From an archaeon (GTDB lineage: Archaea; Asgardarchaeota; Thorarchaeia; Thorarchaeales; Thorarchaeaceae), in contig JAJRZD010000068.1 of assembly GCA_024275415.1 (NCBI GenBank), positions 1-21,385 on the forward strand: a stretch of DNA of 21,385 bases, read 5' to 3'. Shown one piece after another: positions 1 to 17,213 of this stretch (positions within the stretch are counted from its first letter, which is position 1; each line of letters starts with the position of its first letter). A model generated the notes under the pieces. It was not told where the DNA came from. It was given only the letters and a program-made list of their open reading frames with translations, and did no database searches. The position numbers and the translations under genes are program-made.

Positions 1-2101
1 ATGTGTGACTGAGATTCATTGGTAGGGAATCACCAATCAAGAGGGATTTCGAATAGAGTGTATGCAATGTCCTCCATCGTGTGACTGTATGGTTATCGAC
101 AAGTAGATAATCTGCATCGAATTCTCTTGCTAAACCCAGTATCTCCCGCGTTGCATTACATTCTGGGAGGAATTTGCTGCTTAATGCCAGACTTGCTGTT
201 CTGCGATCCGTAATCCACGAGAATTCTCGTGCCCTGTCAACGATGAACACCGTTTCAGAATTGCCATAAGACGCTATCACACCTTGAAGGCCTTCCCATC
301 CATATCTTTTCTCTATTTGTACTAGCTCCAATCCAATTGGGTATGCCATATATCCCGGAACGAACAAAATGCCAACGACTAAAACCGTCATAATAGGCTT
401 CCAATTTCTTCTTAATACTGTCCCTCTCACATCACATTGGTTTCTAAATGATACTTCTCTCAACAGCACTTGGAAAAACGAACCAGTCGCGATAATCAGC
501 ATGAACGTGCTGAAGATAAAGAACCGCGAGTCCGAATAGATGTATTCCAATGTCAGAACATCCTTTCCAAATGATGCAAGTACCTTGAAAGTTCCTGCCG
601 CAACAATCAAGGCACATACAACCAGTACAAGTGAGGTTCTATCTCTCCCCTTCTTGAAGAAGACCACTACCAATATCGCCACCAGTGCCAATGAAATATG
701 AAAGGTGAAAAACACAAGAAAGCTCACTACTACTTTGGGATTCACAGGTGCTAGGATTGCAACCAGAATGTTTCCGCTCTCCGGGGTGATTGTCGAATTT
801 ATCAGGAATGAGGAGGTTATGACAGGCAGTCTCCAAGCAAGAATGCCTCCAACGCTCGAGTAGAATATTATCAGGAATTGCACCGAAGACGACCTATAAT
901 GCTTTACAATCAATGATAACATCATAATCCCTATCAGAGTGATCACAATAATATTAGAAAGCATAGCCCTCACAATAAACAATGACATGAATACTACAAA
1001 TGCAATCACAGTTCTACTGCTTTTGAAACCCCATTTGAGGCCAACTATTAATGGGAATATGAGGCATACTATGTAGAAGTTGACCACCCAAACCACGTCG
1101 GTCAATCCAAGAAGAAGCCCGATTACGATACCATACCTGACTTGTCCATTTTGCCTGATGTTATAGAGATGAATTGCCGATGCAACAAATAGCAGACTTG
1201 TAATCTCTGGACCGTATGCTACAACTGAGTGAAACACGAAAAGCGGATGAACTGCAATGATTCCTGCTATGACAATCGCAGACTGCCTTCCAAAGTAGTA
1301 TTCTGCAAGGTTAAAGCCCACTAGTATTACTGCCATGCCTATTACCACTAGAAGAAGATTAGGACCTGATCTCATGGGGTCAAGTAGCAACCAAGAAAGC
1401 GCAAATACATATGCAATTCCCTGATGTGCAATATAATCGACCCCATTCCGTAAGGGCACGACTGCGCCATCCCCTAGAATTGATGAACTGAACTCGCCTT
1501 GCATGATAGATCGCGCATAATCCGAATATAATGTTGCGTCTGGTGCAATTGAATCAGCCGAGGCTATTAATAGAAACACTCTTATACTCAAACCTAGCAA
1601 AAGGAAAACCACAACATTCTGATTAGGAACTGCAAATAGTTGTTTTAATGATTCCAGCTGGTTCGGTTTTAGGAATACTAAACCAAGAATGACAAAGATT
1701 GTTGTAGAAAGGAATACATACTCTGGAAGTGCAAGAGAAACTCCCGTAGACAATACGATTATGAACAGAACATGAACCTGAATGACGCCATAGACAAATC
1801 CAAAGAGTAGTGTGCTCCACAATCCCTTATTATTCTCTGAAAGGATTAAAGAACTTAGGATGATTCCCGGGCATAGCACAAGTACAAATGTGCCTGATAT
1901 TGCTTGAATGATTATAGAAATATACAATGATGTTGAATATGAAAAAAAGTATACAATCATCGTGACCGAGTACAGAATGAGGAGTTGGTAGAATGCATCC
2001 AGAGAACTGAATCGTGATGTGAGCGGAGCCAAAGGTGGTGTCCACCTAATTTCTTTGCTTTCAGAGCATTCAGAAATAGGAAATGTAGACTCACTGCCCA
2101 T
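1..2101 (-). CDS. Partial (>700 aa, runs off window start) polytopic membrane protein, GT-C-like (ArnT/PMT-type) glycosyltransferase
   Basis: Not in the ORF track; translated by hand. ATG at 2101 is preceded by GGTGA (SD), and the frame is open to base 1. It begins MGSESTFPISECSESKEIRWTPPLAP and has many hydrophobic helices. An acidic loop motif SIAPDATLYSDYARSIM resembles the first external loop of GT-C enzymes. The C-terminal part is more soluble (…FDADYLLVD…). Confidence 0.7.
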   Translation of the reverse strand, partial: MGSESTFPISECSESKEIRWTPPLAPLTSRFSSLDAFYQLLILYSVTMIVYFFSYSTSLYISIIIQAISGTFVLVLCPGIILSSLILSENNKGLWSTLLFGFVYGVIQVHVLFIIVLSTGVSLALPEYVFLSTTIFVILGLVFLKPNQLESLKQLFAVPNQNVVVFLLLGLSIRVFLLIASADSIAPDATLYSDYARSIMQGEFSSSILGDGAVVPLRNGVDYIAHQGIAYVFALSWLLLDPMRSGPNLLLVVIGMAVILVGFNLAEYYFGRQSAIVIAGIIAVHPLFVFHSVVAYGPEITSLLFVASAIHLYNIRQNGQVRYGIVIGLLLGLTDVVWVVNFYIVCLIFPLIVGLKWGFKSSRTVIAFVVFMSLFIVRAMLSNIIVITLIGIMMLSLIVKHYRSSSVQFLIIFYSSVGGILAWRLPVITSSFLINSTITPESGNILVAILAPVNPKVVVSFLVFFTFHISLALVAILVVVFFKKGRDRTSLVLVVCALIVAAGTFKVLASFGKDVLTLEYIYSDSRFFIFSTFMLIIATGSFFQVLLREVSFRNQCDVRGTVLRRNWKPIMTVLVVGILFVPGYMAYPIGLELVQIEKRYGWEGLQGVIASYGNSETVFIVDRAREFSWITDRRTASLALSSKFLPECNATREILGLAREFDADYLLVDNHTVTRWRTLHTLYSKSLLIGDSLPMNLSHT

Positions 2102-2306
2102 TGACTATCACCATCAGACATCTGACTCATGTTTATTGTTCACTTCTCTGATGTCATGTGCATGAAAAGACTTTCTAATCTTCCACTAATGAAGAAAGAT
2201 AATAGAAAACAGGGACACACTCCAATAGATTAAAGAATGTTACATATTACAAATCACAGTAGCTCCCAATATCATTTGAAGGAATTCGGGAAAGAAGGTG
2301 AATTGA

Positions 2307-3056
2307 GTGGGATCAGTGAAATATGGTGTTATCCCCGCAGCTGGTGTGGGCACCCGTATGGGCTATCTATCAAATGTGCTACCTAAGCCGCTCTTTCCGT
2401 TGTATGATCGCCCTGTGATTCACCATGTTGTTGATAATATGATACACATGGGTGTTGAGCAGATTTTTGTGATGACTTGGTACAGAAGCAGACAAATCAG
2501 AGAATACTTCGAATCGGTTGCAGGAGATCTTGATGCTGCTGTAGAGGTTGTTCAAATGAATGAACTTCCTCCGGGAATTGCGATGAGTATAAAGAATTCC
2601 GAGTCAATGGTCGATGATTCCTTCGTTGTGTTCCTTGGTGATGATGTCACTTTAGCTAATAACCTTCTATCAATGATTGAAATGTTTGAGCGCGCCAAAG
2701 CCGACGTTGTTGAAGCGGTCGTAAATGAGCCAAGCATCTCTGTTCTTCAAAGAACCTGCTGCGTGACTCTTGGAGATAATAACAAGATGATTCGCATCTA
2801 TGAGAAACCCAAAGTTCCGCAAACAACCTATCGAGGGTGTGGGGTCTATGTCTTTTCTCATTCTGTGTATGACGTTATAGAGAAAGCTAAGCCATCCTCT
2901 GTCCGAAATGAGGTTGAAATCACAGATGTTATCGATTCCATTGCCCAGACAGGGAGAGCGTATGGTGTACTTCTAGATGGTATGAATGTCAATATCAACA
3001 CGAGTGAGGATTTGTTAAACGCATGGAATATGTATCGTGAATGGAGAATGAGATGA
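2307..3056 (+). CDS. Sugar-phosphate nucleotidyltransferase (NTP_transferase family; RmlA/GalU/AglF-like), 249 aa
   Basis: Motifs GVIPAAGVGTRM…LPKPL, LGDD, EKP and RNEVEITD. GTG start with AGGTGA SD at 2296-2301. No hexapeptide C-terminal domain. Substrate cannot be assigned. Confidence 0.9.
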   Translation: MGSVKYGVIPAAGVGTRMGYLSNVLPKPLFPLYDRPVIHHVVDNMIHMGVEQIFVMTWYRSRQIREYFESVAGDLDAAVEVVQMNELPPGIAMSIKNSESMVDDSFVVFLGDDVTLANNLLSMIEMFERAKADVVEAVVNEPSISVLQRTCCVTLGDNNKMIRIYEKPKVPQTTYRGCGVYVFSHSVYDVIEKAKPSSVRNEVEITDVIDSIAQTGRAYGVLLDGMNVNINTSEDLLNAWNMYREWRMR

Positions 3057-4093
3057 TGAGTCAAGAAATACGATATCATAAAGTAAGTGTAATTCTCCTT
3101 AACTACAATGGAGAGAAATTAGCCCCACTATGGGAGTCCCTCTTCAACATTGACTATGATAACTATGAGATTATCTTCGTTGATAATGGGTCAATTGATG
3201 GCAGCTTGAATCATTTCAGGAAGCTTCAGGCAAAGTATTCTCATATCGATACCAAAGTAGTGAAGATTCCAAAGAATGTTGGCTACTCAAAGGCGAATAA
3301 TTATGGGAAACAAAGAGCTACTGGAAAGTATATCGTTCTCCTGTCCAATGATATAGAGGTTACACCTGATTGGATGAAGAACATGATCCAAGCTTTTGAA
3401 ATGCATCCAAAACTAGCAATCGCGCAAAGCAACTTACACTATCTATATGACCGAAAGATGCGTGACTACCAGTGCAACAATATCGATGTCCTAGGATTTT
3501 GCCACGTTGCACCACTAGAGGAAGAGGTCGAGGAAGTCTTCTACAGTGAGGGAGCTGTCATGTTTATTCGTCGTAGTGTCTTGAATGAGGTTGGGGGATT
3601 GTTCGACAAGGATAATTTCATGTTCGAAGAAGATATTGATTTATGCTGGCGTGTGCGACTGAGGGGATACAAAGTAGGCGTCGTTAAATCCTCGATAGCC
3701 TATCATGCTCGTGGTGGCACTGTTCCTGGTGTTGTGATGAAGACCGATCCTTTCTATGTTCATTTGACCACAAGGAATAAGATTGCAACCTATTTCAAGA
3801 ACTTTGGCACAAAGAATCTCATAAAGTACCTACCTCTCGTCATTAGCGTTGCATTTGCAAAGGGCTTATGGCTCATAGCAAAGGGGAAGTTGGATGGAGG
3901 ACTCGCAACCTTCAGGGGCGTGGGGGCTTTCTTAAAGAGATTAAGGAAAAACTTCAGCAAACGCATATTTCACCAATCACTTCGAAAGGTTCCTGACTCG
4001 GAAGCTCTCAACATGGTATTTCCAATTGGTTATGCTATTCTCGGTGGATTGCAAGCAATGACCAAGGTACGAAAAGAGTGGGTAAAGAAATAG
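3053..4093 (+). CDS. Family 2 glycosyltransferase (WbbL/rhamnosyltransferase-like subgroup)
   Basis: Motifs VSVILLNYNG, IIFVDNGSIDGS, NVGYSKANNYG, GAVMFIRR and FMFEEDIDLCWR. The likely start at 3053 forms an ATGA overlap with the upstream stop; the ORF track starts at 3041. Confidence 0.9.
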   Translation: MMSQEIRYHKVSVILLNYNGEKLAPLWESLFNIDYDNYEIIFVDNGSIDGSLNHFRKLQAKYSHIDTKVVKIPKNVGYSKANNYGKQRATGKYIVLLSNDIEVTPDWMKNMIQAFEMHPKLAIAQSNLHYLYDRKMRDYQCNNIDVLGFCHVAPLEEEVEEVFYSEGAVMFIRRSVLNEVGGLFDKDNFMFEEDIDLCWRVRLRGYKVGVVKSSIAYHARGGTVPGVVMKTDPFYVHLTTRNKIATYFKNFGTKNLIKYLPLVISVAFAKGLWLIAKGKLDGGLATFRGVGAFLKRLRKNFSKRIFHQSLRKVPDSEALNMVFPIGYAILGGLQAMTKVRKEWVKK

Positions 4094-4159
4094 ACCTGTT
4101 AGGTAGTACGAATACCTATATGCACATACTTAATTCACCATCGATTCGTTGCCATATTC

Positions 4160-5590
4160 ATGTCTGGAAACAATCTAGCCAAAGGAACACTTTATCTTGC
4201 GATATCCCAAATTGCAGTGGCATTATCTGGATATGCGATTCATATCTTTCTAGGTCGATTCTTGACTCCTGCTGAATATGGACTCTATGCTATTATTATC
4301 TCTGTGGCCACCATTCCGAACTTGGTGCTAGCTACCGGCGTCCCCCAAGCAGTATCTAAGTACATCTCAGAAGATTCAATGAACTCGCCATCGGTACGGG
4401 CACAGGGGATCAGACTTCAATTGATTCTAGGCAGTGTTGTATTCATCACCTATCTGTTAGCAAGCTATCCAATTGCCTATCTTCTAAATGATATGGCTCT
4501 CGTTCCTTATCTACAACTCTCAACGATAGTGATTCCTCTATACGCATTGTATGCGTTATATGTCATGATTTTGAATGGTGAGAAGCGATATCGTGAGCAA
4601 TCCTTCAATGTAATAGTCTTCTCTGCCACAAAGTCCTTACTTGTCATCTTTCTTGTATTGATTGGTTTCTCTGTTTCTGGAGCCGTCTTCGGTTTCTCGA
4701 TTTCTCCTCTAGTTGGACTTGTTCTAGGGGTTTTCTTGATTCGCCATATTCCCAAAACTGCAGATAGGTTCTCTGCTAAGAAACTGATTTCCTTTGCGAT
4801 TCCCGTCACCATCTTCTGGATTTCCTACCAGCTCATAATGAGTATCGATTTATTGGCTGTCAAAGCATTGTTACCAGATTCAGACGCGCAGGCAGGATAC
4901 TACTCCGCGGCTTCAATGATTTCACGAACTGCCTATTTTCTGGTTACAGCTATCTCCTATGCATTCTTCCCTGCAATATCTACAGCTAATCGTGCAAATG
5001 ATTACGGGACAGTGAAGCTATTTATCCGTGAGTCAAATCGTTATATTGTAATGATACTAACTCTCATGGTTGTTGGGGCGGCTTTCTATGGTACCGAGAT
5101 TGTTACATTCCTTTATGGAACCGCATACCTGAGTTCAGGTATCGTTCTTGGTATTCTGATGCTTGGAATGAGTTTTTTCTCCGTGTTCACGTATCTATTA
5201 TCAGTTCTATCTGCGGGAAGTAGACCGAGAATTGCCATGGTTCTAGGTGTCTTCACACTTGCGATTGATTTTATACTTAATATTCTTCTTGTACCTACAT
5301 ATGGGATAAATGGAGCTGCTTGGGCAACCACGATTGCCAGTGGAGTTGGCTTAGTTCTGTCCTCAACAGCAATTTTCTATGTCTTTGATTGCCTGATATC
5401 GCCTATATCAGTTACTAGAATAATCATTTCTGGGATTGTCACTTTTGGTGTAGTTCTCTTTTTACATCTAAATGTTTTTGGATTTATTATTGGAGGGACT
5501 CTTACCACCTTAATCTTTAGCGGATTGCTATTTATGACCCGAGAGTTGAATAATGATGACTTTGCACGTGTTCGGTCTTTCATCAAGTGA
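4160..5590 (+). CDS. Oligosaccharide flippase (Wzx/RfbX-like, MOP superfamily), 476 aa
   Basis: About 12-14 hydrophobic segments, with LGRFLTPAEYGLY, AGYYSAA and LVPTYGINGAAWAT. Lies in a GT cluster. Confidence 0.9.
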   Translation: MSGNNLAKGTLYLAISQIAVALSGYAIHIFLGRFLTPAEYGLYAIIISVATIPNLVLATGVPQAVSKYISEDSMNSPSVRAQGIRLQLILGSVVFITYLLASYPIAYLLNDMALVPYLQLSTIVIPLYALYALYVMILNGEKRYREQSFNVIVFSATKSLLVIFLVLIGFSVSGAVFGFSISPLVGLVLGVFLIRHIPKTADRFSAKKLISFAIPVTIFWISYQLIMSIDLLAVKALLPDSDAQAGYYSAASMISRTAYFLVTAISYAFFPAISTANRANDYGTVKLFIRESNRYIVMILTLMVVGAAFYGTEIVTFLYGTAYLSSGIVLGILMLGMSFFSVFTYLLSVLSAGSRPRIAMVLGVFTLAIDFILNILLVPTYGINGAAWATTIASGVGLVLSSTAIFYVFDCLISPISVTRIIISGIVTFGVVLFLHLNVFGFIIGGTLTTLIFSGLLFMTRELNNDDFARVRSFIK

Positions 5591-6683
5591 TAATGCGAGA
5601 AAAGACCGTGACATACTTTCCAGCGACTGAATGCCAGTTATAGTTTTGTTTAGTGAACTCTTGTGCCTGTTTACCAAATGCTTCTCGTAAGTTGGTATTG
5701 TCAATCAGATCTGTGATATTCTGCAAGAAACAATCAGCATCCTTTTCTTTGCACTGAAATCCGTTTTTCTTGTGTGCAATAGCTGTCGTTACACCGTCAG
5801 CATCTGAGGCAATCACTGGTAGTCCGAAGAAAGACGCCTCTACAGCAACCAATCCAAATCCCTCAAAATCGCCCTCTACATGTATATTTGGCATTACGAA
5901 TATATCTGCTCCAAGATACGCGTTATATAGGTCTTCATCATTGAGTTTTCCAAGTAGTCTGACATGGTTTTCTACTTTTACACGTTTGATCGCATTTTCA
6001 ATTTCATATCGAAACTCTCCATCTCCAATATGAACACAGATGACATCACAATTGTGTTCTACCACTTTTGGCATCACATTTTCTATGAACCAGTGGAATC
6101 CTTTTCGTTCAACCATTCTACCAACCATAAGAATAATCGTTGTGTTTTCTGATGCCCCAGTCAACTCCTCAAGACGACGTCTTGGTTCCCGAACTCCCAA
6201 CTCCGAGTTTGTCATGTATTTAAGTGCTTCTTCAGGCATGTGGATTCCGTTTGGCACAATATGTATCCGTGATGGCACTACACCTCGGCTGATACACTCG
6301 TATCTGGTGGCATGACTTACAGTGATGACTCCATCCATCATGGAGATCATAGTTGGAATCAGTGCTTGATAAAATGGATTCTTGTATGTGATATCAAGTC
6401 CATGAACTGTAATAATGACAGGTTTACGAAGGACGGCCTTTAGCACCACTCCAATTGGAGCGAGAAGGCCGTCTTGTAAATATACCATATCGTATTTTTT
6501 TGTCATGAGTCGATGAACTGCATTGAGAAGAAGATAGAGGTAACCCAGAAAAACCATCACATTATGCTTTGTCCATTTTACAAGAGTCACTTCAGCAATG
6601 TCGCAGAGCCCTTTGTACAGATAGTATGCCATACGTTCCATCCCCCCATTTAGTGGAGGAAACTTCCGTGTAACAAAAAGCAC
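5583..6683 (-). CDS. Family 4 glycosyltransferase (GT-B, retaining)
   Basis: Motifs LFVTRKFPP..GGME, ITVHGLD, IVPNGI, VGRMVERKGF and EGFGLVAVEASFFGLPVIASD. The true start may be ACG at 6707 (see findings). Overlaps the flippase 3' end by 8 nt, convergently. Confidence 0.92.
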   Translation of the reverse strand: MLFVTRKFPPLNGGMERMAYYLYKGLCDIAEVTLVKWTKHNVMVFLGYLYLLLNAVHRLMTKKYDMVYLQDGLLAPIGVVLKAVLRKPVIITVHGLDITYKNPFYQALIPTMISMMDGVITVSHATRYECISRGVVPSRIHIVPNGIHMPEEALKYMTNSELGVREPRRRLEELTGASENTTIILMVGRMVERKGFHWFIENVMPKVVEHNCDVICVHIGDGEFRYEIENAIKRVKVENHVRLLGKLNDEDLYNAYLGADIFVMPNIHVEGDFEGFGLVAVEASFFGLPVIASDADGVTTAIAHKKNGFQCKEKDADCFLQNITDLIDNTNLREAFGKQAQEFTKQNYNWHSVAGKYVTVFSRIIT

Positions 6684-6770
6684 TTTGACGCTCTTTTGTG
6701 ATTCCGTATAATTACCTCCTCTGCATCAGGTTTGGGATGCCTCTGCAGTATTCAACTTGTCTATTTCAAA

Positions 6771-6780
6771 CTTTTTATAT
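6771..6780 (-). promoter_or_regulatory. Candidate archaeal TATA box for the GT4 gene
   Basis: The minus strand reads ATATAAAAAG about 50 nt upstream of the AGGAGGT SD (6714-6720). Motif and position only. Confidence 0.4.
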
Positions 6781-6784
6781 TTAG

Positions 6785-7815
6785 GGCTCTGTAAAAAGTC
6801 GATGAGGTAACACAAGGATTAGTGACGAGACCGACAGGATCACATGATTCATGAACTACTACTCGTCATACGACGCAGCCAGGTCGCGTCATTTTCAGTT
6901 CTTGCTTGATGAACTTGTCAACCTTTAGCAATATGGTGCCCAAACGGATTTCTACCTTCGGACGGCCTCCTGACTTTCTCCTCCCAGCTCTCTGTGTCCT
7001 TCTTGTTCTCACGTTCGACTCAGGACTCAGCTACAGGATCTTTGTGGCGCAGCTTGCATTCAACCCCTCTCTCCTCCAACGACTTGGTCTTGAGAGACCT
7101 CCTTCTTATTCTATCCTCCAACAGGCACTGGAACGAGTGGATTCACAACTCTTTCATTGAATGATCCGACTTCTGGCTCGGAAGAAACCTCCTCCAAGGA
7201 ACATCGCAGTGGACTCTACCGAGTTCTCACACTCAACGGGAGGAGAGTGGATGTCCTTCAGGTTCAAAAGGACGTTACAACGGCGTTTCCATGCACCTCA
7301 CAACGTGATAGACACTGACACCCTGATGATACATGCATCCAGAGTATGTGCGCGACCTGCTGGCGATGCCAGGCACATGAGGGCTCTCGTGAGGAGAGTA
7401 CCAATTCCCTAGTTTGAGGTGGTCTACGGTGACAAGGCATATATCTCACGAAAGAACGTCCAGTCCATCTCTGACCTGGGAGCATATACAGATATCGAAC
7501 CGAAGAAGAATGCACGAGCCCGAGCATTGGGTCATCCGGCTTACAAACAGTTGGTCAAAGAGTACCGGTCGAGCCCTGAGAAATGGAAAGAGAGGTATCA
7601 GTATGGGAAGAGGAACCCTTGTGGAACAGTAATCCGGGGTACTGAAGCAGCGGATCAAGAGGTTCTACAGGAGGTGGTTTCGCAATGCGAGTATGGATCA
7701 AGTCTAGGAGTGGATGGAGTGTTTTGTCGCGATGTATCACCTCAAATGCTTCGCGGAGGGCTTATGTTGGCATCCTCGGTTATCTGACAACAAAACTGAT
7801 AAGGTGGTTATTTGA
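6785..7815 (+). mobile_element. Degenerate IS5-like insertion sequence (DDE transposase)
   Basis: The putative left end GGCTCTGTAAAAAGTC at 6785 resembles IS903/IS5-type termini. It encloses the transposase pseudogene and is higher in GC than its flanks in spot counts. No matching right IR or target duplication was found, so the boundaries are approximate. Confidence 0.7.
6851..7815 (+). pseudogene. IS5-like DDE transposase pseudogene (DDE_Tnp_1 type)
   Basis: Track ORFs 6906-7160, 7161-7412 and 7419-7787 share one frame. Motifs SYR…LGLERPPSYSIL, IAVDSTEF (D1), VYGDKAYIS (D2) and YGKR…VETV.GVLKQR (E, reconstructed across indels). Stops at 7158, 7410 and 7705, plus frameshifts near 6925 and 7615-7640. 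Confidence 0.88.
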
Positions 7816-7861
7816 ATTCGGAATCTGTCAAAACATCAAAAGGTAAAGATAGAATCTTTTC

Positions 7862-9424
7862 ATGAGGAAAAGGAGTGAATGTATGAAAATGGATGAAAAA
7901 GAGGAGGACGTTCCATTATCTATCATTGATAAAATTCGTTTCACTTGTCGCTCACCCTTCACCATTTTCTTAGCCATCTCCATTTTTTTGACATTCCTAG
8001 TAATCATGAATGGATTCCAAATCCATGCAGATGCAGCTCTCGAGTTTAGGAATGCTCGAAATCTTGTACTCTATGGAGTGATAGAGCCTGCCCCTCTGCT
8101 TCCCATTCTGCTTTATGCACTTCTCTTTCAGATATTTGGAATAAATTTGGCAATCATTCACTTCAGCCAAGCAATCTTTACAATCGGCGTAATGGGCATT
8201 ATCTACAAGTTTGCAGAGCAAGCGGGGGATAGCAGATATCATCTCCTACTTGCGATGCTTACAATATTTCTCTTGGCTCCCATTGCGTTTTTTGGTATTA
8301 TATCGGGGAAACAGTATCCAATGTTCATGTTCTTCGCCCTCATCTCCTACTATCTACTTCTCACGATGACTGAGAGCAATAACAATCGGTCGATTTTGCT
8401 AGCTGCACTCTTTATGGCCCTTGCGTACTTAACTCATGTTCTTGCAACATTTCTTGCCATCGTTCCATTAATCCTCTTCCTGTTCATGGCATTTAAAATA
8501 GAGAAAATCAAAGCGCTTAAGGATTTCCTCCTCTTCTATGTCACCTTTGTGACTACACTCTTCCCGTATCTTCTTTGGAGGTACCTGATTGATGGACTAT
8601 CATTCTACACTTACCCTAGCAACTGGTACACTCAAAGATATGGAGGAATCCTGAATCAGGTCTATTGGGGGATACCTGTACCTTTTTCATTCGAGTATTA
8701 TCTCCGATGGCTTACTATCATTAGCGGGACTCTAACACCAATTGGCATCGTCGCTTTATTTGTAGGGCTTTTCGAGCTTCGCAAGAGGAATGTTCTATAT
8801 CTGATCATGGGATGGATTATTGCATGTTTAATACCATTCATTTTGTCCATACTACCCACCTACGAGCATTATCTCTTCATGCTATTTCCAGTGATGGCTA
8901 TTCTGCTAGTTCGGGGCACCATACTTGTCCAGAAATATGCACAAAGAAATCGAATCCTGATTCTAGCAGTCATTATTTTGGTTATCTTGGCATTTAGCTT
9001 TGGAACGTTTCGGCTATTCAATGCTTCGTTTGCGTTAGGTCAAGGCAGGACGAATCTTGAAGCGGAAGCACTTCAGCATGCACAATGGATCGAACCTGAA
9101 GATGTCGTTCTAGCTCGTACCTATATTCTAAATGCATACATACCCTACTCTCATTTCATTACATTCGGCTTTGACCTCACCGAAGAAGAAACATTAACAT
9201 TCCTCAACTGGACGAGCGAGCTGTTGGTTCTTGATATTCTTGGAACCCATAACGTTTCATTCATTGTCATATACACTAATTACGAACGCGAAATAGCTAT
9301 TCATTCTTGGTTCACATCCTCATTCGGTTATCCGCCACGCCATGTACTAGGACTCAATTCCTCCTCTTTCATTCTAGTTTCGGTGGGGTCGACTTATAGT
9401 CTATATCAGGTGATAGAGCAATGA
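7862..9424 (+). CDS. GT-C-like polytopic membrane glycosyltransferase, paralog A (about 513-520 aa)
   Basis: About 11-13 TM helices, an early loop motif DAALEFRNAR, SGKQYP, and a soluble C-terminal domain. The start may be ATG 7883 after GGAGTGA. Clear paralog of 11041-12573. The GT-C call rests on topology and context. Confidence 0.65.
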   Translation: MRKRSECMKMDEKEEDVPLSIIDKIRFTCRSPFTIFLAISIFLTFLVIMNGFQIHADAALEFRNARNLVLYGVIEPAPLLPILLYALLFQIFGINLAIIHFSQAIFTIGVMGIIYKFAEQAGDSRYHLLLAMLTIFLLAPIAFFGIISGKQYPMFMFFALISYYLLLTMTESNNNRSILLAALFMALAYLTHVLATFLAIVPLILFLFMAFKIEKIKALKDFLLFYVTFVTTLFPYLLWRYLIDGLSFYTYPSNWYTQRYGGILNQVYWGIPVPFSFEYYLRWLTIISGTLTPIGIVALFVGLFELRKRNVLYLIMGWIIACLIPFILSILPTYEHYLFMLFPVMAILLVRGTILVQKYAQRNRILILAVIILVILAFSFGTFRLFNASFALGQGRTNLEAEALQHAQWIEPEDVVLARTYILNAYIPYSHFITFGFDLTEEETLTFLNWTSELLVLDILGTHNVSFIVIYTNYEREIAIHSWFTSSFGYPPRHVLGLNSSSFILVSVGSTYSLYQVIEQ

Positions 9425-10824
9425 TGAATCTCTCTGGAAGATTTTCCTCATTCAAGCGAATGCATGAGCAAATTCTGGTTTGGTGTCCGCTTTTCATCTC
9501 TATTTTCATTATCATATGTGTCCTTGTGCAACCTCTAGGAATAACTGTTGTGTACTTTTCTGATATGAACCGAGAGGATGAAGGAATTCGCCTATCTCCT
9601 GACCGTTATATCTCGGGAGTTCTTAATGAAGATGATATCACCTATAGGCGTTCCAACGCTAGCCTGTTGCATATTAATATTGATTCTCCACCATATATGG
9701 TACAGTACTTTGGCACACTATATCTCATTTCAAGACTCCGTACAACGTCAGAGTTGCTTATACTAAGGACGGGAACTGAAAATGGAACCATCTCAAAATG
9801 GGTGCTGAATAGGGCCCTAGATAAGTATTCAGCAAAGCTGGTTTATAGCTCCAAAACTAAGCTATCTCAATCACTAGCTCGGTTGCCTGATGATTCTACT
9901 TATTTCCTAGGCACCCCCTATGATGAGATCTTGGATCTAACTCAGGATCCGATGACTTGGTCCGATCCCGTAAACTGGACAGGTAGCATCCGAGGCCCCC
10001 TCTCGTTCTATGTCTATTCCAACAGTCCATACTCGATTAATCTCACAAAAAACGACCTCAACCAATACGAAGGGGTCGATGTCCTTAACATTACTGTCAA
10101 GAATATGAAAGGTACAATCCTTTACCGAACTGGGATTCCCGATGACGGCATTTCAACTGCAAACCATGTATCTGGTATCACACAAGAAGTCCAAATCGAC
10201 CTTCCAGCAAACGAAATTGTTCTTGTTGAATGTAATTCAACGTATGATTTACGGATTTCCCGTATTATGTCGGATTACGATGTGTCCTTTTGTTTCAAAG
10301 ATGGTTTTCATTACCTTGGGTCTGCTGATGGCTCGTCATCCCCTCCTCCTGTTTTCTTCTACAGCTACTCTGGTTCGCTTAGTCTTAGACTTGCTCACTA
10401 TTCAAACCGACAAAGTGTTCATGTCATTCAAGAAGGATCAAACCAGACGGTTTACCTAAACAAGACCAGCACTACCGTTATTCAAGTAACTCCAAAGACG
10501 CTTGGCTACATAGTTTTTGAGAAAGGCGATACGGTTATCAACACAGAAGGATATACTGCACTTTCTTCTTCAAATTTCTTTAAACCCTATCGAATCTATC
10601 AAATCTCCGATGCCGATTTGGCAGATTACATAATTGCAGATTATATTCCCTCTGTTGCTGATGATGATGGTTGGGCGTTGGTTTCCGTAATTCTTAACCC
10701 TATGGAGATTTTCGTAACAAATGACGGAACTATAGATTTAGTCATAGTGTCTTCCCATGGGATTAATGTTGATTTGGATTGGGTTCGAATTGAAATCACT
10801 CTCCCTCCGATTTGGGCGCGATAA
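9421..10824 (+). CDS. Membrane-anchored extracellular protein of unknown function, 467 aa
   Basis: Single N-terminal hydrophobic segment (ILVWCPLFISIFIIICVLV) followed by a beta-rich S/T/D/Y-rich region with 8 N-X-S/T sequons. ATGA overlap with the paralog A stop. Confidence 0.8.
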   Translation: MMNLSGRFSSFKRMHEQILVWCPLFISIFIIICVLVQPLGITVVYFSDMNREDEGIRLSPDRYISGVLNEDDITYRRSNASLLHINIDSPPYMVQYFGTLYLISRLRTTSELLILRTGTENGTISKWVLNRALDKYSAKLVYSSKTKLSQSLARLPDDSTYFLGTPYDEILDLTQDPMTWSDPVNWTGSIRGPLSFYVYSNSPYSINLTKNDLNQYEGVDVLNITVKNMKGTILYRTGIPDDGISTANHVSGITQEVQIDLPANEIVLVECNSTYDLRISRIMSDYDVSFCFKDGFHYLGSADGSSSPPPVFFYSYSGSLSLRLAHYSNRQSVHVIQEGSNQTVYLNKTSTTVIQVTPKTLGYIVFEKGDTVINTEGYTALSSSNFFKPYRIYQISDADLADYIIADYIPSVADDDGWALVSVILNPMEIFVTNDGTIDLVIVSSHGINVDLDWVRIEITLPPIWAR

Positions 10825-11041
10825 CGAGAATCTCTTTCTTTGAGAAAAGCTTCAATCCAATATCAAATGTAACTATGATAATAAAGAGCGCAAGAAACAC
10901 CACCAATGAGATGGAAAATAGTTCATTGAATGGGAATATTGGGAAAAGAAACCAAAGAACTCCATAGAACAAGCTACCTATACTTGCTGAGTGGAATAGA
11001 TTGCGTATTACATCATCTGTATCCATTCTACGACTATCCAT
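10796..11041 (-). CDS. Small two-TM membrane protein, 81 aa
   Basis: The ATG overlaps the stop of 11041-12573 by one base (TGATG). Two hydrophobic helices and charged termini. It fills the gap between two large genes, with a 29-nt convergent overlap with the 467-aa gene. Confidence 0.65.
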   Translation of the reverse strand: MDSRRMDTDDVIRNLFHSASIGSLFYGVLWFLFPIFPFNELFSISLVVFLALFIIIVTFDIGLKLFSKKEILVIAPKSEGE

Positions 11042-12573
11042 CAGGATTCCTCCTGAATAACTCTGATCAATCTATACGAGTAGCCTACTGCCACCTCCTG
11101 AAAATATGTGGACTTCTCTATCCCCTCTACATGCCGTGGCTGCCCTCCATATGCCACAGTAAACCACACATTACTTCGAATCTCCTTTGAAATGCTGCTG
11201 TAGAGGATAATGAATGAGATATTGTATTTGGCAAGCATCCCAAGAACCGCCGATTCATCCGTCCAGTTGATGTATATTACAGCATCCTCCTCCAATACAT
11301 CCTTGCCCAAGTTATAGAAATCTGCTTTGGGAATCAAAGGGGCAAAATAGTAGCTCCTGAATAGTACCCTGTCCTCATACTGGATGTATGTCGAAAACAA
11401 CATGGCATCTTCAAGATCTCGAGCCCCAACCTCTCCTTTTTCCATCCCTGTATGTACTGCCGCTGAGAAAGACAACGCTGAGAGAAATATGATTAGGAGG
11501 ACGAATATCAGCTTGATTGCTCTTTTGTTTGCTAGTAGTCTGAAATACTTGATGAGGCCTAGCATCATCACTATTACGATAGCTGGATAAAATACATAGA
11601 GATAGGACAGTGTAGTTGGAACCTTGGATAGAATGAATGGAATTGCAGCAGGAAGACTCCACGAGAAAGCCATCTTGTAGATTGTACTTGGGTATTGTGA
11701 TCGAATCGTATTCAAGAGGATTAGAATCAATCCTACAGGGACAAAGACTTGTGCTAGGATTTTCACCCATGTAGAATAATATTCCCAAGTATATCCCACA
11801 GGAACTCCCCAGTATTCCTGATTTAAGATGGAACCATATTTAATGGTAGCCCATGCATTAGGATAATGATAGAAGTTCCATCCATCAATTGAGAACCTCC
11901 ATAGTATGTATGGTGCAGTGAAGCAACCAAGAAGAATGTAGAATGAGAATATATTAATCACTCTGTTCTTAATGTTGCCCTCTTGAAGGAAGATATAGAG
12001 GACAGGGTAAATCATCAAGAAGGTTGACAAAATATGAGTCATATATGATAGAGCCAAAGAGAGGGCCGATAAAAACATTAGACGTCTACTTTGCTCCTTC
12101 AATGATTTGTCGAGTAGATATAACGATAGGAATGCAAAGAACATAAAGATAGGATATTGCTTTCCGCTCTGGACACCAAAGAATGTGAGGCTAGATACAG
12201 CAAAGATTGCTGATGAAGCAAAGAATGAAAGGCGTTCATCCGAGGTTTCTCGTACGACGAATTTGAAGATTAAAACACACAGGGCAAGTATGAAGAATGC
12301 CTGTGTATAGAATATCAATCGATAGTCCAATCCAAAAATCGCGAATAACACCGTATAGAGTACCACATCAACAATTGGTGCAGATTCAAGATTTCCATGT
12401 AGAAGGAGTTCTCTTGCGTTATAGAACTCGTATCCTGCGTCCGAATACAAAGTGAGTGCATATTGGTTTAGTACACTTATCGCAACTAGCATTATGACTA
12501 GAATGTATGTTAAGGGATTCAACAAGATCTTTGACTTTAAGGATTCAAAGATTGCTATCACACTCTTCTCCAC
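11041..12573 (-). CDS. GT-C-like polytopic membrane glycosyltransferase, paralog B (510 aa)
   Basis: Motifs DAGYEFYNAR, SGKQYPIFMFFA and PYILWRFSIDG…YGSILNQEYWGVP. Colinear with paralog A. Confidence 0.65.
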   Translation of the reverse strand: MEKSVIAIFESLKSKILLNPLTYILVIMLVAISVLNQYALTLYSDAGYEFYNARELLLHGNLESAPIVDVVLYTVLFAIFGLDYRLIFYTQAFFILALCVLIFKFVVRETSDERLSFFASSAIFAVSSLTFFGVQSGKQYPIFMFFAFLSLYLLDKSLKEQSRRLMFLSALSLALSYMTHILSTFLMIYPVLYIFLQEGNIKNRVINIFSFYILLGCFTAPYILWRFSIDGWNFYHYPNAWATIKYGSILNQEYWGVPVGYTWEYYSTWVKILAQVFVPVGLILILLNTIRSQYPSTIYKMAFSWSLPAAIPFILSKVPTTLSYLYVFYPAIVIVMMLGLIKYFRLLANKRAIKLIFVLLIIFLSALSFSAAVHTGMEKGEVGARDLEDAMLFSTYIQYEDRVLFRSYYFAPLIPKADFYNLGKDVLEEDAVIYINWTDESAVLGMLAKYNISFIILYSSISKEIRSNVWFTVAYGGQPRHVEGIEKSTYFQEVAVGYSYRLIRVIQEES

Positions 12574-12739
12574 ACTTACAGCTCCTCATTCGTGCTTATG
12601 TTTCTTAAGACGCATTAGGGTTAATATTTTTATGTTATCATCAGGACAAGTGAAGTCAAGATCGCAAAGCAGTCCCACAATCCTTATCTGCATGTCCTGA
12701 AAGCAGCTCGTTATCCTCTCGCATTAGGACGAAATTCCT

Positions 12740-13501
12740 TTGAAACTGATAGTGATGATTCCTGCCTATAATGAGGCTCATAGCATACAGAGAGTAATAC
12801 AAAGTATCCCTCGAAAGATTCCTGGAATTGATAAGGTGGAGGTATTACTTGTAGATGACGGATCCGCAGACAAAACAAGCGAGTTTGCTCATGAAGCAGG
12901 GGCTGATCATGTATATCGTCATGCAAAGAATTTTGGCGTTGTTCATGCTTTTAAGAATGGACTGACAAAAGCACTCGATAAAGGGGCTGATATCATCGTC
13001 AATATCGACGCTGATGGCCAATTTGACGCTGAAGAGATACCCATGCTTGTTGCACCAGTTCTATCTGGAAAAGCAGATGTCGTTCTCGGATCACGTTTCA
13101 GTGGATCAAGCTATCGCCGAGTACCCCTCATAAAGCGAATAGGAAACATTATCATCAGTCTTATTGTATCGTTGCTTTCAGCACAGCGAATACGTGACAC
13201 TCAATGTGGCTTTCGAACATTATCTAGAACAGCTGCTGAAAAAACCCAGCTCAGCGGCTTGTTCACATATACGCAAGAGATGATTCTTATGCTATCCTTC
13301 AAGAGAATGAGGCTTGTGGAACTTCCAATCTCAGTGAGATACTTTGCTGATCGTGAATCCCGAGTTGTAAAGAATATCTCTAGATACACCTTTAAGGTTC
13401 TTGGAGTCCTACTTGTCACAATCATCCGAAGGTTCTGGAGATATTTCCTTTTGATTATGACATGCGTTTTTGCACTCATTGTTCCACTCGTGATGCTTTG
13501 A
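12740..13501 (+). CDS. Polyprenol-phosphate glycosyltransferase (DPM/DPG-synthase-like GT2), 253 aa
   Basis: Motifs IPAYNEA, VDDGSADKT, IVNIDADGQF, VVLGSRF and RDTQCGFR, with a hydrophobic C-terminal anchor. TTG start. Sugar specificity is unknown. Confidence 0.88.
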   Translation: MKLIVMIPAYNEAHSIQRVIQSIPRKIPGIDKVEVLLVDDGSADKTSEFAHEAGADHVYRHAKNFGVVHAFKNGLTKALDKGADIIVNIDADGQFDAEEIPMLVAPVLSGKADVVLGSRFSGSSYRRVPLIKRIGNIIISLIVSLLSAQRIRDTQCGFRTLSRTAAEKTQLSGLFTYTQEMILMLSFKRMRLVELPISVRYFADRESRVVKNISRYTFKVLGVLLVTIIRRFWRYFLLIMTCVFALIVPLVML

Positions 13502-13568
13502 TTGCCCCGTATAACATAATGAGTCCTCGGAACAGATAAGACAAGTCTAGTATAACTACCGGTTGTGA

Positions 13569-13836
13569 TGCCGGAATTCGGACACGATATCAATCAGATT
13601 TGTTCTTCAAACGTATCTCACCCAACTAGAGTTTCTGAACAGACTGGTTGAAGTGATAGAGGTTGCTATTGCACAAGAGGTAGTAGATGACGGTGATGAC
13701 AGACTTTTGATGACCCTTCTTGGGATTGACTACCGCACTGCTGTTCACCAATGAGGTTGGTGACCTTGAACAATTGATGTCATTGCTTTGAAGATAATTG
13801 GAATTCTAATGAATACGACGAGAATCCCAATCGGGT
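13569..13836 (+). pseudogene. IS110-family transposase remnant (C-terminal Transposase_20 region)
   Basis: Hand translation gives RFVLQTYLTQLEFLNRLVEVIEVAIAQEVVDDGDDRLLMTLLGIDYRTA. After a frameshift near 13747 it reads NEVGDLEQ…(4 stops)…RRESQSG. The spacing from E(V)GD to SG matches the family pattern LxxIPGIG…A…EIGD…QSG. Confidence 0.75.
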
Positions 13837-14020
13837 GCTGCTTTTTGTATTTCTGTGGATTGGATGTTACAAAGGAAATCTTTGAAATCAATGAATCCAC
13901 GCCCTTGAATCTTTTCCAGCGCTAACAGCCATGTAGAAGTCCTGTATTATTGATAGACTATTTTGAGATACGCTTCTAACCCCCGAAGTAGAACTGTGAC
14001 AACCATAGTCCGATATGTTC

Positions 14021-15575: not shown

Positions 15576-17213
15576 CTAGGTTACTTGGGAATTCCTCTTG
15601 TACAGAAGCAAGCCCGACACAACAATTGCCAGAATCCCAATCCCAAGCCCACCGATGACAATGAGATTCACTTCTACAATTATCTCAATGAGCATGACAT
15701 GTGTGACCTCGTCTTCGTTCTGGATGATGAATGCCAGAACATGTTCTCCAGCTGTCAATGAGGTGATCTCTATCACGACATCATTCTGCTGCCAGAAGGG
15801 CAGGAGCGCAAAGGTTTCTTCTACGAGTGTGAGACCGCTCTCAACCAGAATCACCTGAATCTCGCTTCTGTACGGTCTATGGAATGTATCCCAAACCGAG
15901 AAGGCCATTACAAGTTTCTCGCCTTCGGTGATGGTGCTCATGTATGATAATGACGCGACCACTAGGTCTGGATAGAATCTTACTGCTCCTCCTACTGGGA
16001 CTGTCCACGCGAAATCGTCTGTTGCATTGATTGTCCACTTCCAGATAATCTCTCCCTCGGCATTCACCTCTACAAGAACAGGATTCACCTCTGCTGATGC
16101 CATCCAAACGGTATTCCCATTAGGTAGCCTCTCAACAAGACCTTCTATTGGTCTGTCAGAGGGCGGATCATATCGCCACACCTCATTGGCACTATTGGCC
16201 ACCTCATCAACTGTGAACTCTATCGCCCGAGCATTGCCACCATCATTAGAAGCCCTACCATATACAAGAAACCTATCTCCACCGACCAATTCAAGGTCCG
16301 AAGCATCAAAGAAGAGGCTAGTCACACTGTTTCCATTATCATCATACATCTCAAGTGGCGTAGTCAGCCCATTATACCTGCCAACAGACCAGACGGGTGT
16401 TCCAAGGTTCCTGTTTATTTTCACGATACAATCAAGATTCCTGACGTTTAGATAGATCTCGTTATTGTCAAGGTCCCAGTAAATACTGTTAGCGTGCGTC
16501 CAGTCAAGCCCTTCATCAATCGTTTCGTTTCTCAGGTAGAACTCATCCTCGTCGAACGGGAAGGAGGCATTCACACGCCACCTCCATCTCTCCACACCTG
16601 TTACGTGATACTCGACGACATCATCCGACCATATTGGAAGGATTTCTCCCTCAAAATCGAACTCCCCTATCTTCACTCTCTCGATGATGAGGAATGTCTT
16701 CTCAAACGGATTATATGTGATATCATCATGTCCCTGTGGAACCGGCAGCAATCGAGTATCATTAGTTTCGAGGTTCCAAAGCATGACGCTCCCAGAATCA
16801 GGTTCTCCGAAGAACACGGTAGTCGAATTCACGAAGCCAGGTGACTCGGGCACACCGCCTGGGATGTAAAGACCATTCACGATTTTCCCTGATGTGTCTA
16901 CAACGAGCATGTAGCCTTCAACAGTCGTGGTGTTGGGATAGTCAGGATATACGCCAAGAGCCAGCAGGTTCCATCCATCAATGAATTGCCCTTCGTCGTC
17001 GATTGTCATATGCGATGCATTCTCAAAGGACTGCAATATGGTGTCGTTCTGCACCAACGAGGAGGTAGGTTGAACACCAAGCTGGGTTATGCCGTCCACA
17101 CTCAAGGTCACATTTCCTGCATTGGAGATAAGAGATGAAGAAATGAATAGAATGATTAGGACTCTCGCAAGGAACCGCATACTCCTGAAGCACAGCGCCA
17201 TGGGCTTGCACAC
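15576..17213 (-). CDS. Secreted, C-terminally anchored arylsulfotransferase (ASST)-fold protein, probably catalytically altered
   Basis: Signal-like N-terminus. Motifs GHDD, DWTHANSIYWD, YLNVRNLDCIVKI…VWSVG and RLPNGNT. C-terminal TM helix followed by KR. The true start may be an internal ATG (17201 or 17180). Confidence 0.75.
   Translation of the reverse strand: MCKPMALCFRSMRFLARVLIILFISSSLISNAGNVTLSVDGITQLGVQPTSSLVQNDTILQSFENASHMTIDDEGQFIDGWNLLALGVYPDYPNTTTVEGYMLVVDTSGKIVNGLYIPGGVPESPGFVNSTTVFFGEPDSGSVMLWNLETNDTRLLPVPQGHDDITYNPFEKTFLIIERVKIGEFDFEGEILPIWSDDVVEYHVTGVERWRWRVNASFPFDEDEFYLRNETIDEGLDWTHANSIYWDLDNNEIYLNVRNLDCIVKINRNLGTPVWSVGRYNGLTTPLEMYDDNGNSVTSLFFDASDLELVGGDRFLVYGRASNDGGNARAIEFTVDEVANSANEVWRYDPPSDRPIEGLVERLPNGNTVWMASAEVNPVLVEVNAEGEIIWKWTINATDDFAWTVPVGGAVRFYPDLVVASLSYMSTITEGEKLVMAFSVWDTFHRPYRSEIQVILVESGLTLVEETFALLPFWQQNDVVIEITSLTAGEHVLAFIIQNEDEVTHVMLIEIIVEVNLIVIGGLGIGILAIVVSGLLLYKRNSQVT

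What the first reader, a model, noticed from the sequence alone, without database searches (positions are those of the whole stretch)
7862..13501. Mirror-image twin GT-C cassette plus Dol-P-sugar synthase: candidate undescribed extracytoplasmic glycosylation system
Two paralogous membrane proteins of about 510-520 aa face each other. By eye they share roughly 40% identity over a gapless N-terminal 110 aa, with blocks DAxxEFxNAR, SGKQYPxFMFFA, ALxYxTHxLxTFL, PYxLWRxxIDG, YGxILNQxYWGxP and PRHVxG (seen). Each is translationally coupled to a different partner, and paralog B shares a divergent promoter with a DPM-synthase-like GT2 (seen). GT-C enzymes use polyprenyl-phosphate sugars on the outer face, as in ArnT, PMT, PIG-M/V/B and ALG3/9/12 (established). 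The simplest model is one donor-making enzyme feeding two specialised transferases with dedicated partner or acceptor proteins (inference). The loop motif DAxxEF differs from the usual DE..Y/H, and I do not recognise SGKQYP from any named family.
Basis: partly seen in the sequence, partly recalled or inferred. Interest (0 to 1): 0.75.

Follow-up and report, generated by a model that had tools for sequence, protein, structure and literature searches.

The report
Twin GT-C glycosyltransferases in glycan island
Two old, diverged copies of an ArnT/PMT-type (GT-C) membrane sugar transferase sit tail to tail in a probably horizontally acquired surface-glycan island of an archaeon, beside the enzyme that most likely makes their lipid-linked sugar donor; the mechanism is a known kind, but the subfamily and a surface protein that travels with it are uncharacterised.

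Summary
P0001 (7862-9424, +) and P0002 (11041-12573, -) are convergent paralogs, 36% identical over 497 aa (E 4e-106). Each overlaps the start of a downstream gene. Paralog B lies 166 bp from a divergent DPM1/AglJ/PpgS-like GT2.

The donor-synthase link is real. A P0004-type GT2 (44-52% identity) occurs in all six independent homolog loci of 7 kb or more, usually with a Wzx-like flippase and a GT4. That matches known three-component systems (GtrABC, ArnC/ArnT, AglD/AglR/AglS).

New here: the partner P0003 belongs to a conserved, sequon-rich, membrane-anchored family found next to GT-C genes in three loci. The island is low-GC, and the subfamily was not found full-length in the 399 other genomes of the phylum searched.

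The scan had already noted this same stretch, but not on other DNA.

The parts
7862..9424 (+). Twin A (P0001, 520 aa; the database gene call starts at Met8): GT-C class A glycosyltransferase of a small PMT_2/ArnT-like subfamily, with a C-terminal extracytoplasmic alpha/beta domain (about 405-520)
   Evidence: PMT_2 26.3 bits, cut-off 26.1; pLDDT 89.5
9421..10824 (+). Partner of A (P0003, 467 aa): one N-terminal TM helix (18-36), then a predicted all-beta, sequon-rich ectodomain. Member of an unnamed family found next to GT-C genes in L028 and L032
   Evidence: ATGA overlap; E 9e-11 to P0160; E 2e-20 to P0161; 9 sequons against 4.3+-1.9 expected
10796..11041 (-). P0005, 81-aa ORF with two hydrophobic helices. 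Its start overlaps twin B's stop by 1 nt, and it overlaps the 3' end of P0003's gene by 29 nt. Whether it is a real gene is unverified
   Evidence: No relatives in the homolog loci. No Pfam or NCBIfam hit
11041..12573 (-). Twin B (P0002, 510 aa): paralog of A and its sister in the family tree
   Evidence: PMT_2 16.9 and TMEM260-like 19.2 bits, both below cut-off; sister support 100/99
12574..12739 (.). Divergent intergenic region between twin B and the GT2, with an A/T-rich TATA-like stretch around 12621-12634
   Evidence: sequence only, promoter not tested
12740..13501 (+). P0004, GT2 of the polyprenyl-phosphate sugar synthase type (DPM1/AglJ/PpgS/GtrB-like). Has a DAD motif. It lacks the C-terminal two-helix hairpin of its orthologs and ends in one unrelated hydrophobic segment
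   Evidence: PpgS 1.7e-29, AglJ 4.3e-26, all far below equivalog cut-offs; orthologs in 6 of 6 loci
4160..5590 (+). Wzx/AglR-like flippase (Polysacc_synt_3, MurJ). Orthologs at 36-41% identity lie near the GT-C in L013, L029 and L031, and at the edge of L007
5583..6683 (-). GT4 glycosyltransferase. Orthologs at 38-47% identity occur in L007, L010 and L029
2307..4093 (+). Sugar-1-phosphate nucleotidyltransferase (2307-3056) and a cytoplasmic GT2 (3041-4093) of the same low-GC island
2..2101 (-). Third, distant PMT_2-like membrane protein (700+ aa, cut by the contig end). Not a member of the twin subfamily
   Evidence: PMT_2 18.4 bits; no A2-HMM hit at E <= 0.01
6906..7787 (+). IS5-family transposase broken into three ORFs (GC 0.505), inserted between the Wzx/GT4 block and the twin cassette

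Best explanation
The twins are two specialised extracytoplasmic glycosyltransferases of the GT-C class A fold. They belong to a small, uncharacterised branch of the PMT_2/ArnT/TMEM260-like superfamily. Proposed mechanism: P0004 charges dolichyl (polyprenyl) phosphate with one sugar on the cytoplasmic face. The lipid-linked sugar is flipped, possibly by the Wzx/AglR-like protein at 4160-5590. Each twin then transfers that sugar on the outer face to an acceptor. D57 in the first external loop would position the donor, and the conserved C-terminal alpha/beta domain (R419, W450, E477, H494) would engage the acceptor. The acceptor is probably a surface glycan or glycoprotein. The sequon-rich, membrane-anchored P0003 is a candidate for twin A. 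Shown: paralogy, GT-C fold, superfamily membership, conserved co-occurrence with the GT2, flippase and GT4, and a conserved GT-C/P0003-family gene pair. Inferred: donor identity, a mono-sugar donor, acceptor identity, flippase role and catalytic roles of residues. The cassette lies in a low-GC island that was probably acquired horizontally.
Confidence: 0.6

Rival explanations
1. En-bloc transferase. P0004 acts like AglJ and initiates a Dol-P-linked oligosaccharide, which the GT4 and GT2 enzymes extend and the Wzx-like protein flips. The GT-C then transfers the whole glycan to a protein such as P0003, or to another acceptor. It would be a non-STT3 oligosaccharyltransferase or ligase.
Confidence: 0.15
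2. Decaying cargo. The cassette is a remnant of a transferred glycan island and no longer works as a system.
For: A broken IS5 transposase lies at 6906-7787. P0004 has lost the membrane hairpin present in all six orthologs, and about 520 bp of non-coding DNA follows it. The subfamily was not found in the six same-genus genomes searched. Twin A has Ala where 25 of 28 members have Gly59.
Against: Both twins, P0003 and P0004 are intact ORFs. The twins keep all invariant and nearly invariant residues (D57, Y152, G245, W255, Y337, R419, W450, E477, H494) after a long divergence. Start/stop overlaps are preserved. DPM1-type enzymes with one or no TM helix are active in eukaryotes (established knowledge, not tested here).
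Confidence: 0.1
3. P0003 is a non-catalytic subunit or chaperone of the GT-C, as accessory subunits are in eukaryotic OST or as Pmt proteins pair up, rather than its substrate.
For: The 4-nt start/stop overlap fits co-translation in fixed ratio. P0003-family genes lie immediately downstream of GT-C genes in three loci, including next to a different PMT_2 subfamily in L032. P0003 has a single N-terminal TM helix that could pack against the enzyme.
Against: Six of the eight other independent loci that carry a subfamily member (L007, L010, L011, L013, L029, L031) show no P0003-like gene; L006 is too short to tell. So the enzyme does not generally need it. Sequon enrichment in all three partner-family members fits a glycoprotein substrate as well as a subunit.
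Confidence: 0.15

Closest known systems
ArnT (GT83; C. metallidurans structures 5ezm, 5f15) with ArnC
   Different: About 12-13% identity. No NCBIfam ArnT hit. Archaeal host, so no lipid A. The acceptor is unknown.
AglD / AglR / AglS of Haloferax volcanii (PMC3871713)
   Same: Archaeal precedent with the same logic. A DPM-like GT2 charges Dol-P with mannose, a Wzx-like protein (AglR) is needed for its delivery across the membrane, and a membrane transferase (AglS) adds it to an already N-linked glycan outside the cell. The window has candidates for all three roles.
   Different: The sugar, the acceptor and the duplication into two enzymes are unknown or different.
Bacterial three-component glycosylation systems (GtrA/GtrB/GtrC; GT136 system, PMC11127046; Gram-positive systems, PMC8035078)
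   Same: A polyprenyl-P-sugar synthase, a flippase and a serotype-specific GT-C. Often mobile and variable between strains, as this low-GC island is. Loci with several GT-Cs are reported (PMC11127046).
   Different: The flippase candidate here is Wzx-like, not GtrA/SMR or MATE. A conserved membrane-anchored partner protein is not part of those systems.
TMEM260 / PF11028 (protein-specific O-mannosyltransferase; 9rql; PMC10214176; preprint 10.64898/2026.03.17.711096)
   Same: Best solved relative by sequence profile (E 9.5e-6 over about 206 N-terminal residues). Shares a D-S-G loop-1 motif, with family D57 on the essential D52. TMEM260 also has an alpha/beta domain after the TM core, and that domain carries a catalytic acidic residue. 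This is a possible analogy to invariant E477.
   Different: No TPR domain. P0002 scores 19.2 bits against PF11028 (cut-off 24.2) and P0001 does not hit it. Equivalence of E477 to TMEM260 D441 was not tested.
STT3 / AglB / PglB oligosaccharyltransferases
   Different: No WWDYG motif, no DxD, no STT3 Pfam hit. The genome has its own STT3.

Membership tests
GT-C fold, class A | Polytopic membrane core with the GT-C helix arrangement, and an extracytoplasmic first loop carrying a conserved acidic residue | tested here: met
Pfam PMT_2 (PF13231) | Score at or above the gathering cut-off of 26.1 bits | tested here: inconclusive
   P0001 scores 26.3 bits (28.3 for residues 1-280). P0002 scores 16.9-18.6 bits. 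14 of 28 family members hit at E <= 0.01, best 2.7e-11. This is a divergent branch at the edge of the model.
ArnT (GT83) | Equivalog-level sequence match, and an Ara4N/lipid A pathway context (ArnA, B, C, D) | tested here: not met
   The NCBIfam scan returned no ArnT model for either twin. The window has no ArnA or ArnD. The host is an archaeon.
STT3/AglB/PglB oligosaccharyltransferase | STT3 Pfam domain, D-x-D in EL1, and WWDYG in the C-terminal domain | tested here: not met
   No PF02516 hit at E <= 1. WWD[YWFN]G occurs in 0 of 28 members. EL1 has a single Asp. Only the fold is similar.
TMEM260-like (PF11028) | Pfam score at or above 24.2 bits, and luminal Rossmann-like plus TPR domains | tested here: not met
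   P0002 residues 1-260 score 19.2 bits; P0001 has no hit. The family profile hits 9rql at E 9.5e-6 over the N-terminal TM part only. There is no room for a TPR domain in a C-terminal domain of about 115 aa. This is remote homology, not membership.
Three-component extracytoplasmic glycosylation system | A polyprenyl-phosphate sugar synthase (GT2, DPM1/GtrB/ArnC type) genetically linked to the GT-C | tested here: met
   P0004 is divergent from twin B across 166 bp. Its best models are PpgS, AglJ and Dol-P-hexose transferase. Orthologs occur in 6 of 6 independent homolog loci. Caveat: P0004 lacks the orthologs' C-terminal hairpin.
Three-component extracytoplasmic glycosylation system | A dedicated flippase for the lipid-P-sugar | tested here: inconclusive
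   No GtrA/SMR-type protein was recognised. A Wzx/AglR-like gene is present and co-conserved in 4 of 6 loci, but it may flip the main glycan instead.
Three-component extracytoplasmic glycosylation system | Transfer of a single sugar from the lipid-P-sugar to an acceptor outside the membrane | not testable with these tools
   This needs biochemistry or glycan mass spectrometry.

The most novel reading that the evidence does not exclude
The GT-C and the P0003-family protein form a dedicated enzyme-substrate pair. It would be a protein-specific, lipid-P-sugar-dependent glycosylation cassette, the prokaryotic counterpart of TMEM260-type protein-specific O-mannosylation, which moves between archaea as a unit and was duplicated here into two specialised enzymes. 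The invariant Glu477 of the C-terminal domain would be the catalytic base, as D441 is in the luminal domain of TMEM260.
Probability: 0.15. Interest if true: 0.6.

Novelty: new member of a known kind. Interest (0 to 1): 0.35.

Why it matters
Surface glycans decide how archaea meet viruses, partners and surfaces, and almost nothing is known about them in Asgard archaea. This locus shows a variable glycan island, probably acquired horizontally, that brings the familiar 'lipid-linked sugar plus GT-C' decoration step into such an organism. It also defines a small, rare GT-C subfamily with clear candidate catalytic residues (D57, Y152, Y337, R419, W450, E477, H494). Finally, it links GT-C genes to an unnamed family of anchored, sequon-rich surface proteins. 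This helps annotation and gives a testable target, but it does not change what is known about how GT-C systems work.

Tried and rejected
(1) Word-index searches with P0001 and P0003 returned only the query itself. The exhaustive HMMER search was needed to find the family.
With A1 and A4 it found no relative in the species-representative genomes. So no organism names were obtained for the homologs.
(3) The AF2 model of P0003 from a 3-sequence alignment has pLDDT 37.5 and is unusable. No fold search was made, and the fold of the partner remains unknown.
(4) Complex prediction with P0001 and P0003 residues 1-275 scored 0.00 and gave no verdict. It is evidence neither for nor against binding.
(5) Idea tested: P0005 is the missing C-terminal membrane hairpin of P0004, encoded as a separate gene. 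An HMM of the six orthologs' tails scores -0.2 bits on P0005 and finds nothing else in the six-frame window. No sequence support.
(6) A possible frameshift in P0004 was checked. No ortholog-like sequence lies downstream in any frame.
(7) The look-up of sequencing runs listed no run, and no RNA holder was listed.
(8) TMEM260 did not appear in the structural libraries searched. The comparison with it therefore rests on sequence profile only.
(9) The AglS paper (PMC3510580) is not held, so AglS's own family assignment was not checked.
(10) P0003-family proteins were not found in the 399 other genomes of the phylum searched.
Full report
WHAT IS THERE

The window is a whole 21,385-bp contig (C48) of a 3.5-Mb, 92.9%-complete archaeal MAG. 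Earlier notes of this scan call it Thorarchaeota. I confirmed only that its SSU rRNA is archaeal.

Positions 1-14,020 form a glycan-assembly island:
- a distant PMT_2-like membrane protein cut by the contig end (2-2101, -)
- a sugar-1-P nucleotidyltransferase and a GT2 (2307-4093, +)
- a Wzx-like flippase (4160-5590, +)
- a GT4 (5583-6683, -)
- an IS5 transposase broken into three ORFs (6906-7787)
- twin A (7862-9424, +) and P0003 (9421-10824, +)
- the 81-aa P0005 (10796-11041, -) and twin B (11041-12573, -)
- the GT2 P0004 (12740-13501, +)

Housekeeping genes follow: UDP-glucose dehydrogenase, an arylsulfotransferase-like protein, pyruvate kinase, enolase and ApgM. The island has GC 0.40-0.42 against a genome mean of 0.47 (sd 0.025 in 2-kb windows), while the housekeeping part and the IS fragments are at about 0.50.

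THE OBSERVATION

It is correct.
- The twins are 36% identical over 497 aa (E 4e-106).
- Twin A's stop overlaps P0003's start (ATGA). Twin B's stop shares one base with P0005's start.
- The two operons converge and overlap by 29 nt.
- Twin B and P0004 diverge from a 166-bp spacer.

WHAT THE TWINS ARE

A word-index search of 5.8 billion proteins found only the query itself. An exhaustive HMMER search of 1.84 billion cluster representatives found a small family: 159 at E <= 1e-3 and 24 at E <= 1e-30, most of those about 500 aa. Its members are rare, each seen on one to three contigs. JGI names one of them 'ArnT-like'.

A 28-member alignment is conserved end to end:
- invariant: Y152, Y337, E477
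- in 90% or more: D57, G245, W255, R419, W450, H494

Fourteen of the 28 members hit Pfam PMT_2, best 2.7e-11. P0001 just passes the cut-off and P0002 does not.

The AF2 model is confident (pLDDT 89.5, pTM 0.88) and unmistakably GT-C class A:
- Foldseek E 2e-8 to STT3; ArnT TMq 0.65, TMt 0.63

Atlas neighbours by features and by shape are ArnT/PMT_2 clusters.

By sequence profile the nearest solved protein is human TMEM260 (E 9.5e-6). There, family D57 aligns with D52, a residue whose mutation abolishes activity (preprint 10.64898/2026.03.17.711096). hhalign against a canonical PMT_2 protein (P0162) places D57 on the Asp of Y-D-E-G. So the loop motif is a variant of the usual one, not a different one.

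THE SYSTEM

I fetched nine loci with family members, representing eight independent places: L006/L028, L007, L010, L011, L013, L029 and L031, plus L032, which was found through the partner protein. tblastn with the window's proteins gave these results:
- P0004 orthologs (44-52% identity over about 228 aa) in all six independent loci of 7 kb or more
- Wzx orthologs (36-41%) in L013, L029 and L031, and at the edge of L007
- GT4 orthologs (38-47%) in L007, L010 and L029

In these loci the GT2 carries the GT2_TM_C tail typical of membrane-bound polyprenyl-P-sugar synthases. P0004 matches PpgS, AglJ and Dol-P-hexose transferase models best, all far below equivalog cut-offs.

This is the established arrangement of a GT2 lipid-P-sugar synthase, a flippase and an extracytoplasmic GT-C (GtrABC and relatives, PMC11127046, PMC8035078; ArnC/ArnT). 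Its archaeal precedent is AglD/AglR/AglS, where AglR is itself Wzx-like (PMC3871713).

One caveat: P0004 aligns only to the first ~230 aa of its orthologs. Their two-helix C-terminal hairpin is absent from P0004 and from the ~520 bp of non-coding DNA that follows.

THE PARTNERS

P0003 has one N-terminal TM helix and a predicted all-beta ectodomain (the model is too poor for a fold search). It is not an orphan:
- The gene directly downstream of the closest GT-C homolog (L028) is its relative (E 9e-11).
- So is a 764-aa protein (P0161, E 2e-20, with the central module duplicated). P0161 sits between two canonical PMT_2 genes in L032.

All three members are enriched in N-x-S/T sequons relative to shuffles (9 vs 4.3, 11 vs 5.1, 6 vs 1.3), as expected for archaeal surface glycoproteins.

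Six other loci with family members show no such gene, so the enzyme does not generally need it. I read P0003 as a candidate acceptor (or, less likely, a subunit) specific to one branch. The complex prediction gave no verdict.

P0005 has no detectable relatives and no family hit, so whether it is a real gene is open. The idea that it replaces P0004's lost hairpin has no sequence support.

ORIGIN

The twins are sisters in the family tree (support 100/99), with about 1 substitution per site on each branch. Only the window has two members side by side; the other eight loci examined have one each.

No full-length member was found in six same-genus genomes, in the 85 genomes of the same family, or in the 399 other genomes of the phylum searched. 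The best of those hits (E ~1e-19) cover only the membrane part. The P0003 family was not found in any of them either.

Together with the low GC and the IS5 remnants, this points to a horizontally acquired, strain-specific glycan island. The closest homologs come from hydrothermal-vent and Guaymas Basin sediment metagenomes.

VERDICT

This is a new, uncharacterised subfamily member of a known kind of system.

Two modest new points are the conserved GT-C/surface-protein pairing and the AglB-like C-terminal domain with an invariant Glu, Arg, Trp and His.

The main open mechanistic question is single-sugar transfer (favoured, 0.6) versus en-bloc transfer (0.15).

Noticed in passing
window 6906-7787: An IS5-family transposase split into three consecutive ORFs (84, 83 and 122 aa). 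Its GC is 0.505, unlike the 0.41 island around it. It is a broken insertion between the Wzx/GT4 block and the twin cassette.
   Followed up: partly
window 13230-14020: P0004 ends in a hydrophobic segment unrelated to the conserved two-helix tail of its six orthologs. About 520 bp with no ORF match follows, up to the first normal-GC gene. This looks like the right-hand scar of the island.
   Followed up: yes
window 2-2101 (-): A third, distant PMT_2-like membrane protein of 700+ aa, with about 230 residues ahead of the PMT_2 region, cut by the contig end. It is not matched by the twin-family HMM.
   Followed up: partly
window 15576-17213 (-): A 545-aa protein with a partial arylsulfotransferase (ASST) domain next to UDP-glucose dehydrogenase. 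It could sulfate or otherwise modify surface glycans.
   Followed up: no
L032:1248-6135: The gene for a P0003-family protein of 764 aa, with its central module duplicated, lies between two canonical (Y-D-E-G) PMT_2 genes and after a UDP-glucose dehydrogenase. This is the same sandwich as in the window, but with a different GT-C subfamily.
   Followed up: partly
L011:5841-9488 and L013:5836-9497: In two relatives the GT-C is the last gene of an overlapping epimerase/dehydratase, DegT aminotransferase, GT-C operon. This suggests an amino-sugar donor or acceptor, as in the Arn pathway.
   Followed up: no
L029:206-1780 (-): A second, only distantly related PMT_2 gene lies next to the Wzx gene and the family member. 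Several GT-Cs per glycan cluster therefore occur elsewhere, though not as close paralogs.
   Followed up: partly
L007:2804-4531, L011:13092-14768, L029:8197-10080 and 10512-12245, L031:10475-12136: Unannotated proteins of 550-630 aa, often beside small DUF1616 proteins, recur in the homolog clusters. They are candidates for polymerase-like or other membrane glycan enzymes. They were not compared with each other.
   Followed up: no
G000:C10:26394-27635: The genome's canonical STT3/AglB (928-aa frame) lies on another contig, so the island does not encode the N-oligosaccharyltransferase.
   Followed up: partly
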